From Candidatus Poribacteria bacterium (GTDB lineage Bacteria; Poribacteria; WGA-4E; WGA-3G), in the NCBI GenBank assembly GCA_965214095.1, contig OZ243938.1, positions 2,112,001 through 2,176,000 of the forward strand: DNA of 64,000 nucleotides, written 5' to 3'. Position numbers and translations under genes: made by a program. The notes under the pieces were generated by a model. That model was not told the origin of the DNA. It saw only the letters and a list, made by a program, of their open reading frames with translations, and made no database searches. This document shows, one piece after another, positions 50,355 to 58,682 of this stretch; the stretch's first letter is position 1; each line of letters opens with the position of its first letter.

Positions 50355-50549
50355 TAATACCTCCGTAATGAAACAAGAAACCCCTGCTCTCTCTGAGAAG
50401 ACAGGGGACAAGGCGACACTTTTATGTGAAATTAATCCTATTTTCAAGGATAGATAAAATACCTTATATCAGTATTTTTATTTCATTTCGTCAGGATAAT
50501 GTCGTGCTTTGTTCCACCGCTTTCCCGCGAAAGCAGACGCGTGAAACAC

Positions 50550-50780
50550 AATCCAGGCAGGTCTCCTGACTTCCGATTCTTTTGCTATAGATGACAAGTT
50601 CAACTTGTGTTACAAAAGTCCGCTGTACCTTCCCATCAACCGTTGACAGTGGTCTTTTCCAGCGGAAATTCCCATTGAGGAATAAATCGTTTACAGTGGC
50701 GGGGCCGTGGCGGAATCTCACCGCGCTTCCCTATTCTCCGGGGTTTGTCGCAACTCTTGCGAACCGGCACCTGAACCGTT
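50550..50780 (-). ncRNA. cobalamin (AdoCbl) riboswitch
   Basis: Minus strand: AGGTGCC..AATAGGGAAGCGCGGTGAGATTCCGCCACGGCCCCGCCACTGTAA..CCACTG..GGGAAGG..AAGTCAGGAGACCTGCC (B12 box). Confidence 0.95.
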
Positions 50781-50803
50781 CAAATATTCAAATGTATTTG
50801 AAA

Positions 50804-50969: not shown

Positions 50970-51140
50970 TGTTTGTCTCCTTGTATGTGGCTATTGGCAT
51001 TTTATTGTCGGTTATTCGTCGGCTGTATGCTGATGGCTGATTGTTAATATTATATCTGATGGGGATGCGGTATGGAGAAGGTGTTGGGATGTTAGAACAA
51101 TGGATTTCTAATGGGATTTCATGTGAGTTGTGCTTTTATT

Positions 51141-51214
51141 TTATCTGAACCAGGATTTTCAGGATTAGTAGATTTACAGGATTATGAGTTTGGCTCTGTC
51201 AAGTTGCTATTCAC
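51141..51214 (+). repeat. dispersed repeat family 'TCTGAACCAGGATTTTCAGGATT'
   Basis: Copies at ~25460(-), 51144, 55474, 55879, 58645, 61595 and 61721(-). Confidence 0.8.
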
Positions 51215-51549
51215 CAACGTTTCAGGCAGGAAGCCCACTTCTTTAGGTGTGGGAGGAATGCCCGTTCCTATATTTTGCTTGACAGAAAACGTCAAGTCTG
51301 TTATTATATGCCCAAGCAAGTCGGAAGTGTCTTGCATATCGGGGCACGTTGATTATATCCGTGTCCAAGTAACTCGAAGACGATAGTTCGCTCGAACAAC
51401 TTCCGAAGTCGGAAGTGTCTGAGGTTCTGTATCGTGGGTCGCTGGGACCCCTCGGTGGCATACAGGTAAAGTTACGAGCCAAGACCGAAGAACATCAAGC
51501 CTGGCAGAAGATTAACACAATCCCATGCCTTTAGGCTTGGGTACCTGAA
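51215..51549 (+). mobile_element. 335-bp non-autonomous IS200/IS605 element with internal promoter and structured RNA
   Basis: Preceded by TTCAC. LE GAAG-CCCACTTCTTTAGGTGTGGG; RE CAAT-CCCATGCCTTTAGGCTTGGG-TACC-TGAA. Removal restores TTCAC|AGTTT, matching the uninterrupted repeat copy near 55520. Confidence 0.85.
51279..51307 (+). promoter_or_regulatory. sigma70 promoter inside the mini-IS
   Basis: TTGACA-17nt-TATTAT. Confidence 0.7.
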
Positions 51550-51564
51550 AGTTTATTCTATCCA

Positions 51565-52072
51565 TGGTAGGCGAGGTTTCCTAACCTCGCAATTACCCAC
51601 CACCATCACACCGTAGCCGCGCAACGCATTACGCCTCTTACATTCTCCCCGACATCCGAGACATCCGTGAAAATCCGCGATTCAGACCCACGGTAGGCGA
51701 GGTTTCCTAACCTCGCTCTTCATAGCCTCAGTTTCCAACCACGACAATCCCGTAGGAACGAAATGTATATCAAAATACTACAATGAAATTCAAAATAATA
51801 TTGACCATATACTACAACTAGTAGTATTATATAAACATAATAAGACAATAAATAATAACAAATATTAATTAACAATAATGAAGTCATATTATACCATTCT
51901 AACAGATCATCTAACATTAAGAACAAACGCCTTCGTAGTCGCGCAATTCATTGTGTCTCACATTGTTGGAGTGGTTTCTAACCCCGAGGCAAAGTAGTAG
52001 GCACGCTCCGCGTGCCGTCCTCTTGTTGGAGCAGTTTCCAACCGTGACAGCCCCAGCGGGACGAAAGGTTTA
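51565..52072. repeat. cluster of GTAG/GTTG-initiated REP-like palindromes
   Basis: GGTAGGCGAGGTTTCCTAACCTCGC x2, GTAGTAGGCACGCTCCGCGTGCC and GTTGGAG..GTTTC.AACC; more copies at 53265-53435, 56025-56090, 59135-59200 and 61570-61815. Confidence 0.75.
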
Positions 52073-55455: not shown

Positions 55456-55599
55456 GTTTCCAACAGCGAATTGTCTGAACCAGGATTTTTAGATTTCCAA
55501 GATTACGAGTTTGGCTCTCCCAAGTTCCTATTCCCAGTTTGACGTTGCAATGGAAAGGGAACGGCTATAGTGTTGAGATTGAAGTAGGTGAGATATAAA

Positions 55600-56756: not shown

Positions 56757-56761
56757 TTCAA

Positions 56762-58024
56762 CTACCCAAGCCTAAAGGCCTTTGGATTGTTAAGAGGTTC
56801 AAACAGCGATAACTGAATGATTTTCTTCTCCATAGCCTTTGTTACTTCGTTCTTGTTTCTCGTTTCATAGAGGGTGGCACCCCACCGCTCTCCACGACGG
56901 GCAGTAGCTGCCCGAAAAAGTCCGTTTATTGCAGCGTTGTGGTCTCGGTCAAGCGAGTGTCCACAATATCCGCAGTTGAATGTCCGCACCGATAGCGATA
57001 ACTTTTTCGGTGCTTTCTGTCCGCAGCAAGAGCAAGTTTGCGAGGTGTTCTTCGGATCAACTTGGTGGAAATGGAAACCGTCTCTTTCGGCTATGTTCCC
57101 ACACCACTCAAAGAAGTGTGCCCAAGACGCATCGCTGATACTCTTGCTGAGGTGTTTGTTCTGAACCATATTGGCAGTATTTAGATTTTCGGTTACCAAG
57201 ACATTATTTTTCTTATGATGGTAGAGTTTGTAAACGAGTTTACCAATAAAGTCTCTGCGTCTGTTTACAGTGCGCTCCTGATGTAAAGCGAGTTTGTGGT
57301 GTTGTTTCTTTCTACGGTGAGAACCTAACTTTTTACGAGAAAGGTCTTTAGCGTGCTTGCGGAGTAATCCCTCCGCTTTGCGATACCAACGCGGGTTGTC
57401 AACTTTTTCACCCTCAGATGTCGTCAAATAGTGGTTCGTGCCGACATCAACGGCAACAGCACGGGTCGGTTCCACTTTCGGCGTATCACCGATGTCGCAG
57501 GAGATATGTGCATACCACCCGGTTGCTTTTTTCACGATAGTAACCTCTTTCGGGTCACCTTGAATGGGACGGGACATCCGCATTTTGATTTCACCGAGTT
57601 TGGGCACAATCAGTCTATCTAAACGGTGCTTCGTTGGACGAATAGGATTTTGACGAATGCCTGCTTTGTTCTTACGTAGACTCCAGGTGAGAGAACGGAT
57701 ACGTTTGCGATAGCGTGGGAATCCCGGTTTTTCACCACCTTGTTTGACACGACGGAAAAAGTTCGCAAAAGCTTTGTTCACACGTTGAAGTGCGTGTTTC
57801 TGAAACTCTTGCGGCACAATGTCGAAGTCTTCATACTTTGCACGTGCTTGTGTCAGAAGTCGACACTGTTCAGCATAACTTACAGAACGTTTCTCTTCTT
57901 CATACGCACGCATACGATTCAGTCGCGCTGAGTTGTGTAACTCACACAAATGCGAAAGATATTGATATAACTCGGTTTCTTGCGTAGGTGTCGGATACAA
58001 GCGGTATTTGAACGTTAAAACCAT
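56762..58024 (-). CDS. tnpB: RNA-guided endonuclease TnpB
   Basis: FKYRLYPT, GFPRY, RuvC AVDVG / VTENL / DRDHNAA, Zn finger TSQTCSCCG..FNCGYCG. Confidence 0.95.
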   Translation of the reverse strand: MVLTFKYRLYPTPTQETELYQYLSHLCELHNSARLNRMRAYEEEKRSVSYAEQCRLLTQARAKYEDFDIVPQEFQKHALQRVNKAFANFFRRVKQGGEKPGFPRYRKRIRSLTWSLRKNKAGIRQNPIRPTKHRLDRLIVPKLGEIKMRMSRPIQGDPKEVTIVKKATGWYAHISCDIGDTPKVEPTRAVAVDVGTNHYLTTSEGEKVDNPRWYRKAEGLLRKHAKDLSRKKLGSHRRKKQHHKLALHQERTVNRRRDFIGKLVYKLYHHKKNNVLVTENLNTANMVQNKHLSKSISDASWAHFFEWCGNIAERDGFHFHQVDPKNTSQTCSCCGQKAPKKLSLSVRTFNCGYCGHSLDRDHNAAINGLFRAATARRGERWGATLYETRNKNEVTKAMEKKIIQLSLFEPLNNPKAFRLG

Positions 58025-58440
58025 TATTTACCTCGCTGGTTCTCTACATACTTGCGAAGCACTTCTAAAGTGATACCCCCTATGGAGGCGATAAATTTAG
58101 AACGCGTCCAAAGCGAGGGAATACGAGATTTCAGAGAGGGATACTCATCACGCAACACACGAGAAGTCCAACCTTTGATCCTGCCAACGACAGATGCAGG
58201 AGCGAGTTGGGGACTGCTACTCATCAGAATATGAACATAGTCATCCATCACTTCACAGGCGTGCACTTCATACCCATAAACCTCTTGTTGTTCATAGATC
58301 AGTGTTTTGAGCCGTTCAGCAATAGGAGAGACAAGCACAGGACGACGATATTTTGTGCACCAAATCACATGGTAATCACAACTATAGACTAAAGAATGAG
58401 TTGATTTGTAGGTAGAGGGTTTTTCTTTAATTTCTAACAT
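58024..58440 (-). CDS. tnpA: Y1 transposase TnpA (HUH motif altered to YVH)
   Basis: YHVIWCTKYRR, DDYVHIL, IKGWTS, LWTRS, KYVENQ. Confidence 0.92.
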   Translation of the reverse strand: MLEIKEKPSTYKSTHSLVYSCDYHVIWCTKYRRPVLVSPIAERLKTLIYEQQEVYGYEVHACEVMDDYVHILMSSSPQLAPASVVGRIKGWTSRVLRDEYPSLKSRIPSLWTRSKFIASIGGITLEVLRKYVENQRGK

Positions 58441-58473
58441 GTTATCTATTTATTTATTAGATATATGTTATAT

Positions 58474-58502
58474 ATAATAATATATATTTAGTTAATAGTC
58501 AA
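58474..58502 (-). promoter_or_regulatory. tnpA-tnpB promoter
   Basis: TTGACT-17nt-TATTAT just inside the LE. Confidence 0.65.
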
Positions 58503-58682
58503 ATATATTTGGGCTAAAGCAAAGAAAAGTCCTCATATCCCAAGTCTAAAGACTTGGGCTTCACGGACTATGAGAGGTGAAAGGGTTTGGGAATTGAAGA
58601 CAACTGAATCATAAGTGATTTTGGGTGGGAATTATGTGAATTTGTCTGAACCAAGATTTTCAGGATTGGTAGATTTTCAGGA

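What the first reader, a model, noticed from the sequence alone, without database searches (positions are those of the whole stretch)
51215..51570. Gene-less mini IS200/IS605 element that looks like a self-expressed stand-alone omega/reRNA guide cassette
Seen in sequence: exact boundaries TTCAC|...TGAA|AGTTT, supported by the uninterrupted sister repeat near 55520 (CTATTCCC-AGTTT). It has IS605-type end hairpins and a TTGACA-17-TATTAT promoter pointing at the right end. About 240 nt follow with no credible gene but many stems (TGCCC/GGGCA, GCAAG/CTTGC, GTAACT/AGTTAC, CTGTAT/ATACAG, GGGTC/GACCC). It shares the TTCAC target, TGAA end, GAAG/CAAT guide tetramers and promoter layout with the tnpA-tnpB IS 5 kb away, but its interior is not an obvious copy of that tnpB 3' end. 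Established: TnpB and IscB use end-derived RNAs whose guide is the flanking DNA. Inference: this is a mobile RNA-only element using TnpA and a nuclease in trans, with guide AGTTTATTCTATCCATGGTA. The minus strand also loosely resembles HEARO/IscB-IsrB omegaRNA, so the partner could be IscB-like.
Basis: partly seen in the sequence, partly recalled or inferred. Interest (0 to 1): 0.85.

Follow-up and report, generated by a model that had tools for sequence, protein, structure and literature searches.

The report
Gene-less mini transposon carrying guide-RNA gene
A 335-bp protein-less IS200/IS605 mini transposon, present five times in this sponge-symbiont-type genome, carries its own promoter and a conserved folded RNA that most likely serves as a guide RNA for a TnpB nuclease encoded elsewhere, a kind of element already noted in the literature.

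Summary
Window 51215-51549 is a 335-bp gene-less IS200/IS605 mini element (a PATE). The genome holds 5 copies at 98% identity or more. Each follows T/CTCAC, ends in CTGAA and has different flanks. An uninterrupted paralogous repeat spans the empty site.

The only Y1 TnpA family found in the genome sits in a 1820-bp tnpA-tnpB IS, 5 kb away. That IS has the same TTCAC target and a similar right-end hairpin.

A TTGACA-17-TATTAT promoter (51279-51307) points at the right end. It occupies the same place as the promoter in the left end of full-length relatives.

The interior is a structured RNA, not a decayed gene. A model of its 131-nt core finds it in 46 of 151 Poribacteria genomes, in 3 genera. 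In the 45 matches examined (43 distinct loci, two fetched twice) no nuclease gene lay beside it. 30 of 39 base pairs covary.

Homology to TnpB omega-RNA is indirect. A model built from tnpB 3' ends hits sister minis (E about 1e-8) but not this copy. A model seeded from this subfamily hits tnpB 3' ends weakly (E about 0.008).

The HEARO/IscB idea is not supported. No transcript has been shown.

PATEs that encode omega-RNAs used in trans are already mentioned by Meers et al. 2023, so I rate this a new variant of a known kind.

The parts
51210..51214 (+). TTCAC target / putative TAM, directly 5' of the left end
   Evidence: the five copies follow TTCAC (2) or CTCAC (3). Three of four copies of the tnpA-tnpB IS also follow TTCAC.
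51215..51549 (+). 335-bp gene-less IS200/IS605 mini element (PATE)
   Evidence: Five copies at 98-100% identity with different flanks. The empty site is matched by the sister repeat. No Pfam hit for its ORFs.
51215..51278 (+). Left end, with subterminal hairpin CCCACTTCTTTAGGTGTGGG at 51234-51253
   Evidence: It is 80-89% identical to the left ends of tnpB-only ISs and other minis.
51279..51307 (+). Sigma-70-type promoter TTGACA-17-TATTAT pointing at the right end
   Evidence: 11 of 12 matches. Same position as the promoter in the left end of full-length ISs. 21 of 43 family members have a site with 10 or more of 12 matches upstream of the core, against 3.8% of shuffles.
51314..51549 (+). Predicted RNA scaffold. 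The start is inferred from the -10 box. It includes two 5' hairpins at 51316-51335 and 51341-51366.
   Evidence: Inference. Fold z-score -2.37. No transcript was observed.
51364..51494 (+). Conserved 131-nt RNA core (model R1). It contains hairpin GGGTCGCTGGGACCC (51436-51450), then helix CTCGGTGGC (51451-51459) paired with GCCAAGACCGAAG (51478-51490).
   Evidence: 93.5% of cells are paired, 30 of 39 pairs change on both sides, and 0 of 500 shuffles reach this.
51495..51549 (+). 3' tail and right end: hairpin CCCATGCCTTTAGGCTTGGG (51522-51541) and terminal TACCTGAA
   Evidence: Positions 303-335 are 88-91% identical to the right end of the tnpA-tnpB IS.
51550..51569 (+). Right flank, AGTTTATTCTATCCATGGTA: the putative guide if the RNA reads through
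   Evidence: Inference only, by analogy with TnpB omega-RNAs. The flank differs in every copy.
56757..58576 (-). 1820-bp autonomous IS200/IS605 element: tnpA 58024-58440 and tnpB 56762-58024. Likely source of TnpA, and the candidate source of TnpB, acting in trans.
   Evidence: There are four copies. They carry all four full-length Y1 TnpA matches in the genome (a fifth match is partial).
56838..56916 (-). omega-RNA-type hairpin and helix at the 3' end of the window's tnpB
   Evidence: Model R2: 28.6 bits, E 1.2e-5. Model R3: 11.6 bits, E 1.3, at the same place (L143 1431-1496).

Best explanation
The element is a non-autonomous IS200/IS605 mini transposon (a PATE) whose only cargo is a promoter-driven, TnpB-type guide RNA gene.

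Shown:
- It has inserted 3' of YTCAC at five sites.
- It keeps left- and right-end hairpins like those of the co-resident tnpA-tnpB IS.
- It keeps the left-end promoter.
- It carries a conserved, covarying RNA structure read on the + strand toward the right end.

Inferred:
- The Y1 TnpA of the 1820-bp IS excises and inserts it as single-stranded DNA.
- Transcription from about 51314 runs through the right end into the flank, giving a scaffold of about 235 nt plus a 3' guide of about 16-20 nt that matches the flank.
- A TnpB made elsewhere binds this RNA. The best candidate is the 420-aa TnpB of the TTCAC-targeting IS.
- That TnpB cuts the rejoined empty site (TTCAC + flank) after excision, and recombination with the sister copy restores the element.

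On this reading the mini element parasitises both the transposase and the nuclease.
For: Copies, target and empty site.

TnpA source: the four full-length Y1 matches in the genome lie in the four copies of the TTCAC-targeting IS. A fifth match is partial.

Promoter: for this copy, for conservation, for the matching position in full-length ISs.

RNA: core model R1 matches 6 of 40 genomes of the genus and 46 of 151 genomes of the phylum. On 43 distinct sequences 93.5% of cells are paired, 30 of 39 pairs change on both sides, 0 of 500 shuffles reach this, and slid controls give at most 12 such pairs.

Strand: 120 G-U cells on + against 36 on the other strand.

Link to TnpB omega-RNA:
- Model R2 was built from nine tnpB 3' ends of G076 without the right-end hairpin. 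It hits 18 of 33 mini loci, with E from 1.2e-8 to 0.22. It also hits the window's own tnpB 3' end at E 1.2e-5.
- Model R3 was seeded only from minis of this subfamily's two genera. It hits the same hairpin-plus-helix in 10 of 14 G076 tnpB loci (E 0.008-0.22) and in the four window-type tnpB copies (11.6 bits).

Co-occurrence:
- All 46 R1-positive genomes are among the 121 of 151 that have a TnpB zinc-ribbon match.
- Homologues of the window's TnpB at E 1e-60 or better (49-100% identical) occur in 4 of 6 R1-positive and 3 of 34 R1-negative genomes of the genus. Related genomes are not independent samples.

Literature: the Meers et al. preprint says PATEs 'often encode omega-RNAs' that TnpB must act on in trans (passage seen).
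Against: - R2 gives no hit to this element's + strand at E up to 10. It hits none of the 14 g1/g9 mini loci, nor g6 locus L104.
- R1 does not hit any tnpB 3' end in the window.
- The reciprocal R3 hits are marginal. They are copies of one family, so they are not independent.
- The 5' two-thirds of the core has no counterpart in tnpB that I could find.
- Of 45 core matches examined (43 distinct loci, two fetched twice), one distinct locus (L057/L081) has a tnpB on the same stretch, and it lies 1.6 kb away.
- No full-length transcript was seen.
- G031 holds the RNA but no homologue of the window's TnpB at E 1e-60 or better. It is a 100-contig draft.
- Binding, TAM use and cleavage are untested.
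Confidence: 0.6

Rival explanations
1. The element is a PATE whose RNA cargo does something other than guide a nuclease. For example it could act as an antisense or regulatory RNA on neighbouring genes, or as an RNA that helps the element in another way. It would still be mobilised by TnpA.
For: - The 5' two-thirds of the core has no tnpB counterpart.
- Relatives with an NTCAT target sit between the Shine-Dalgarno and the start codon of an opposite-strand gene in 17 of 21 cases. Their read-through RNA would then be antisense to that gene's 5' leader.
- No nuclease gene lay next to any of the 45 core matches.
Against: - The five copies of the window's own family are not at such sites (0 of 5).
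- The 3' half, the tail and the right end are shared with real tnpB omega-RNA regions.
- The promoter-to-right-end geometry is what a 3'-guide RNA needs.
Confidence: 0.2
2. The element is an inert internal-deletion relic. The left and right ends are kept for TnpA, and the interior is passenger sequence with no function of its own. The five copies would simply reflect recent transposition.
For: - The five copies are nearly identical, so within this genome there has been no time for selection to show.
- No transcript was shown.
Against: - The core is kept across three genera and two families, with compensatory changes in 30 of 39 pairs.
- A strong promoter is kept in 21 of 43 members.
- The interior is not a decayed copy of the neighbouring tnpB end.
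Confidence: 0.1
3. The RNA is an IscB/IsrB-type (HEARO) omega-RNA read on the minus strand with a 5' guide. It would be used by the genome's five IsrB-like proteins.
For: - The genome has five IsrB-like genes.
- Their element left ends are 80-84% like this element's left end.
- In those elements too the guide comes from the right-end flank (Meers preprint passage).
Against: - There is no HEARO match in 51000-51800 at E up to 10. The IsrB locus itself gives 27.6 bits.
- BLAST shares only the left end with the IsrB loci.
- The conserved promoter and the G-U bias favour the + strand.
Confidence: 0.05

Closest known systems
PATE-like minimal IS200/IS605 elements of Geobacillus stearothermophilus that encode omega-RNAs (Meers et al. 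2023 preprint, PMC10055086; passages seen, figures and supplements not seen)
   Same: - No protein-coding gene.
- Left and right ends like those of co-resident IS elements.
- Presumed mobilisation by TnpA in trans.
- An omega-RNA that a TnpB encoded in another element would have to use.
   Different: - Here the RNA has a clear sigma-70 promoter of its own, inherited from the left end.
- It has a 131-nt core of which only the 3' part resembles tnpB-linked omega-RNA.
- The family spans three genera of Poribacteria, with at least 22 matches per genome in two of them.
- I could not see how the Geobacillus PATE RNAs compare in these respects.
TnpB omega-RNA / reRNA of IS200/IS605 elements such as ISDra2 (Karvelis et al. 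2021 and Altae-Tran et al. 2021; recalled, not read here)
   Same: - The RNA is read toward the right end and includes the right-end hairpin.
- The guide is the DNA just beyond the right end.
- The TAM equals the transposon's target motif.
- A hairpin-plus-helix module is shared with the tnpB 3' ends of this phylum.
   Different: - It does not overlap a tnpB reading frame.
- The 5' domain is unrelated to tnpB coding sequence.
- It has its own promoter instead of processing from the tnpB mRNA.
HEARO RNA (Rfam RF02033), the IscB/IsrB omega-RNA, many copies of which lack an adjacent ORF (Weinberg et al.; recalled)
   Same: A multi-copy structured RNA that lies inside IS200/IS605-type ends and sometimes has no nuclease gene.
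   Different: There is no model match. HEARO also has the opposite strand logic: a 5' guide, read inward from the right end.

Membership tests
IS200/IS605 non-autonomous mini element (PATE) | No transposase or other conserved ORF between the ends | tested here: met
   There is no Pfam hit. The only longer frame (minus strand) is broken in the G020 variant.
IS200/IS605 non-autonomous mini element (PATE) | Subterminal hairpins at both ends, no terminal inverted repeats, and insertion 3' of a fixed short motif without target duplication | tested here: met
   The target is YTCAC, the end is CTGAA, and the empty site is matched by a paralogous repeat.
IS200/IS605 non-autonomous mini element (PATE) | Several copies with identical ends in different places | tested here: met
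   five copies at 98-100% identity.
IS200/IS605 non-autonomous mini element (PATE) | A cognate Y1 TnpA elsewhere in the genome, in an element with matching ends | tested here: met
   Actual mobilisation by it cannot be tested here.
TnpB omega-RNA (reRNA) | Transcribed toward, and through, the right end so that the flank forms a 3' guide | tested here: inconclusive
   The promoter direction and the G-U strand bias fit. No transcript was seen.
TnpB omega-RNA (reRNA) | Scaffold homologous to the 3' end / 3' UTR of a tnpB gene | tested here: inconclusive
   R2 hits sister minis but not this element. R3, seeded from this subfamily, hits tnpB ends at E 0.008-0.22. R1 does not hit tnpB ends.
TnpB omega-RNA (reRNA) | Overlaps or directly follows a tnpB ORF in the same element | tested here: not met
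   There is no tnpB in the element. None lay beside any of the 45 core matches examined; the nearest was 1.6 kb away in L057. For that reason I file it as 'works like', a stand-alone form.
TnpB omega-RNA (reRNA) | Binds TnpB and directs TAM-dependent cleavage | not testable with these tools
   Needs RIP-seq and cleavage assays.
HEARO / IscB-IsrB omega-RNA | Match to the Rfam RF02033 covariance model | tested here: not met
   none at E up to 10. Positive control at the genome's IsrB locus: 27.6 bits, E 0.016.
HEARO / IscB-IsrB omega-RNA | 5' guide, read inward from the right end, upstream of iscB/isrB | tested here: not met
   The promoter and the G-U bias favour the other strand. There is no isrB next to it.

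The most novel reading that the evidence does not exclude
These minis are an independent, phylum-wide lineage of self-promoted 'guide-RNA-only' transposons. They have evolved their own 5' scaffold domain and live as hyperparasites of both TnpA and TnpB. Their NTCAT-targeting relatives lodge precisely between the ribosome-binding site and the start codon of genes. Because TnpA excision is scarless, those relatives could act as reversible, RNA-guarded gene switches.
Probability: 0.12. Interest if true: 0.8.

Novelty: new variant of a known kind. Interest (0 to 1): 0.5.

Why it matters
If the RNA is a working guide, this family shows that the guide-RNA half of a TnpB system can break away and spread as a transposon in its own right. 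It would do so with its own promoter and a remodelled scaffold, across a whole bacterial phylum.

That bears on how separate guide loci and nucleases, as in CRISPR, could have arisen.

It also offers natural, compact, promoter-equipped scaffold variants to test with small TnpB editors.

The side observation that related minis sit between ribosome-binding site and start codon could point to a way transposons switch genes off and on without scars.

Tried and rejected
- Rfam on the whole window at gathering thresholds found only a cobalamin riboswitch. Rfam at E up to 10 on 51000-51800 gave four chance-level hits. None was to HEARO, a ribozyme or an intron.
- Direct alignment of the interior to the last 300 nt of the neighbouring IS gave a local score of 25, reached by 28 of 300 shuffles. 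A resemblance I thought I saw by eye was therefore dropped.
- An nhmmer profile of the first alignment against the genome found only the five copies plus right-end-like tails.
- R1 with filters off on the window gave no hit at the tnpB 3' end.
- Expression. 18 runs hold part of the stretch. The 14 RNA-type runs listed hold only 0.07-0.10 of the sampled words. I laid four RNA-library runs, kept as contigs, at 85% likeness. Only 35-66-nt pieces from related organisms fitted: the left end, 51315-51380, 51364-51406, 51457-51498 and flanking repeats. No contig spans the element. This says nothing for or against transcription, and DNA can be present in such libraries.
- Long-range pairing GTAACT/AGTTAC. 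The columns are almost invariant, so it could not be told apart from the local 3-bp hairpin used in R1.
- One search used ten protein queries. One of them, labelled TnpA, was a wrong-frame translation and therefore void. Adjacency of tnpA to the 45 matches was thus not tested, and the TnpB result rests on nine queries.
- In one search, I gave 14 of the 15 fetched G076 tnpB loci. L142 was left out because its frame could not be oriented.
- In one search, only 21 of the 45 matches had both ends recognised by my patterns and distinct flanks. The other 24 were not counted.
- In one search, some upstream windows begin inside the RNA because the core match was 5'-truncated. Those rows score low for that reason.
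- Supplementary files and figures of the Meers et al. papers could not be seen. Extended Data Fig. 2e may show PATE RNAs that bear on novelty.
- I searched the paper library three times. I found no paper on such elements in Poribacteria, and none beyond the Meers et al. passages on omega-RNA-bearing PATEs.

Full report
WHAT IS THERE

The region reads ...GCTATTCAC | CAACGTTTCAGGCAGGAAG-CCCACTTCTTTAGGTGTGGG-... ...CACAAT-CCCATGCCTTTAGGCTTGGG-TACCTGAA | AGTTTATTC.... The element is window 51215-51549, 335 bp.

BLAST against the window's own genome (5.2 Mb, 4 contigs, 41% G+C on the main contig) gives 18 matches. Five cover positions 1-335/336 at 98-100% identity. The rest match only the first 57-90 nt or the last 33 nt.

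The five copies follow TTCAC (2) or CTCAC (3), end in CTGAA, and have unrelated right flanks. Joining the window copy's two flanks gives a sequence that aligns straight across the junction with a paralogous repeat at about 55470-55540.

Record titles of related hits name Candidatus Poribacteria.

NO GENE

Pfam finds nothing for the two ORFs that overlap the element. A minus-strand frame of about 80 codons stays open in the 85-86% identical copies of one relative, but is broken in a more distant variant. Family members also differ by hairpin-sized insertions.

SOURCE OF THE TRANSPOSASE

Five kb away, at window 56757-58576 on the minus strand, lies an 1820-bp IS. It encodes a 138-aa Y1 TnpA and a 420-aa TnpB with OrfB_IS605, TNB and HTH domains.

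- It has four copies. Three are flanked by TTCAC; the fourth has a divergent first 24 nt.
- These four copies hold all four full-length Y1 transposase matches in the genome. A fifth match is partial.
- Its left end has GAAG before a CCCAAGTCTTTAGACTTGGG hairpin, followed by a TTGACT...TATTAT promoter ahead of tnpA.
- Its right end has CAAT before a hairpin and ends TAGTTGAA.

The mini shares all of these features. The role of the GAAG/CAAT tetramers as DNA guides is inferred from what I recall of IS608. It was not tested.

THE PROMOTER

TTGACA-17-TATTAT at 51279-51307 matches the consensus at 11 of 12 positions and has a TG before the -10.

- It sits where the left-end promoter sits in the tnpA-tnpB IS and in tnpB-only ISs of a relative.
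- Among 43 distinct family members, 21 have a site with 10 or more of 12 matches within 130 nt upstream of the RNA core. Only 3.8% of 860 shuffles do.

THE RNA

Related minis from other genomes keep the interior and change it in compensatory ways. A covariance model of the 131-nt core (R1, window 51364-51494) matches:

- 6 of 40 genomes of the genus;
- 46 of 151 genomes sampled from the phylum, in 3 of 22 genera.

On 45 matches (43 distinct), 93.5% of cells form pairs and 30 of 39 pairs show changes on both sides. None of 500 column shuffles reaches this, and sliding the partners by 1-3 columns drops such pairs to 6-12. The alignment was fitted to the model, which favours the structure somewhat.

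Read on the other strand, pairing falls to 88.1%. There are 120 G-U cells on the + strand against 36 on the minus strand. Together with the promoter, this makes the + strand the RNA strand.

IS IT AN OMEGA-RNA?

None of the 45 core matches has a tnpB beside it. The 45 matches are 43 distinct loci, because L050/L080 and L057/L081 are the same places fetched twice. One distinct locus (L057/L081) has a tnpB, and it lies 1.6 kb away (nine valid TnpB queries).

R1 does not hit the window's tnpB 3' end. Direct alignment to that end is at chance level.

However, tnpB genes of a sister genus end in a tail and right end almost identical to those of the minis in the same genome. Just upstream they carry a GGCUGCU-loop hairpin followed by a helix, which looks like the mini's hairpin 51436-51450 plus the following helix. 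Two further models tested this.

- Model R2 was built from nine such tnpB ends with the right-end hairpin cut off.
  - It hits 18 of 33 mini loci, all from that sister genus, with E from 1.2e-8 to 0.22.
  - It hits the window's own tnpB end at 56838-56916, E 1.2e-5.
  - It does not hit the window's mini at E up to 10.
  - It does not hit the 14 loci from the mini's own two genera.
- Model R3 was seeded only from 23 minis of those two genera, including the window copy.
  - It hits the same hairpin-helix site in 10 of 14 tnpB loci of the sister genus (E 0.008-0.22).
  - It hits the four window-type tnpB copies more faintly, at 11.6 bits and E 1.3.

So homology of the 3' part of the core to TnpB omega-RNA is supported by a chain of models (tnpB end to sister minis to this mini) and by a weak reciprocal hit. 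There is no strong direct match. The 5' part (51364 to about 51430, and the two extra hairpins before it) has no counterpart that I found.

CO-OCCURRENCE

All 46 genomes with the RNA are among the 121 of 151 that have a TnpB zinc-ribbon match. Within the genus, homologues of the window's TnpB at E 1e-60 or better (49-100% identical) occur in 4 of 6 genomes with the RNA and in 3 of 34 without. One of those four, G019, holds only two partial pieces of the gene on one contig. Related genomes are not independent, and draft assemblies lose repeats.

THE ISCB/HEARO IDEA

The genome has five IsrB-like genes. Their elements share about 50 nt of left end with the mini. Their upstream RNA gives a weak HEARO match. 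The mini gives none, and its promoter and G-U bias point the other way. This reading is not supported.

EXPRESSION

RNA-library contigs from four studies hold only short pieces of related sequence. This decides nothing.

WHAT IS KNOWN

The Meers et al. 2023 preprint describes minimal, gene-less, PATE-like IS elements in Geobacillus stearothermophilus. [quoted passage not shown] A second paper from the same group shows a PATE with IStron ends (legend seen). The kind is therefore known.

Different here are the clear self-promoter, the remodelled 5' domain, and the breadth and copy number of the family in one phylum.

VERDICT

I rate it a new variant of a known kind, of moderate interest.

Noticed in passing
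G000 C1 about 781035-781440, 5082168-5082572, 959155-959560 (-), 3279115-3279520 (-); loci L103-L123 and others: Related minis with an NTCAT target lie exactly between the Shine-Dalgarno and the start codon of an opposite-strand gene. Of 21 minis with both ends recognised, 17 have the target's CAT/CAC as the ATG/GTG of an ORF of 60 or more codons, 13 have an anti-SD motif at +5..+15 of the right flank, and 12 have both. All four copies of a second, 405-406-bp mini family in this genome do so. Genome-wide, 8.1% of 20274 TTCAT sites have the motif. The window's own family does not show this (0 of 5).
   Followed up: partly
G000 C1 about 781035-781440 (L155) and three more copies: A second gene-less mini family: TTCAT/CTCAT target, its own TTGACA-17-TAAAAT promoter, and an end of ...CTATGAC. 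Its last 100 nt or so match the 3' UTR of tnpB-only ISs. Its 5' part has the same layout as the window element's core.
   Followed up: partly
G000 C1 172950 (+), 1931886 (-), 2600008 (+), 4128720 (-), 4219961 (+): Five IsrB-like genes (RRXRR/PLMP domain; open frames of 354-409 aa, of which the first 70 or so codons read through the upstream RNA; I saw no HNH). A weak HEARO match lies upstream (27.6 bits, E 0.016). The right ends are of the same style as the TnpB elements and the minis.
   Followed up: partly
G000 C1 2451771, 2759589 (-), 3207780, 3362215, 3413998: Five copies (one truncated) of a 528-568-aa TnpB-like ORF with a long N-terminal extension and a weaker zinc-ribbon match (53-56 bits). 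The element end reads ...GGTTAATATCATCGG.
   Followed up: no
window 50539-50789 (-): Cobalamin riboswitch (90.4 bits), upstream of a 463-aa ORF with a dockerin domain.
   Followed up: no
window about 51148, 55474, 55884, 58650 (-): Short repeat GAACCAGGATTTTYAGGATT, with 57 copies on the main contig. The mini has inserted into one member of a longer repeat (about 75 nt) that starts with it. Pieces of this repeat are common in sponge and coral RNA-library contigs.
   Followed up: no
window 51568-51592 and 51692-51716: The hairpin GGTAGGCGAGGTTTCCTAACCTCGC occurs twice, just right of the element.
   Followed up: no
G000 C1 2067968-2068374: One copy of the mini lies about 40 nt beyond the right end of a tnpB-only IS, in the opposite orientation.
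   Followed up: no
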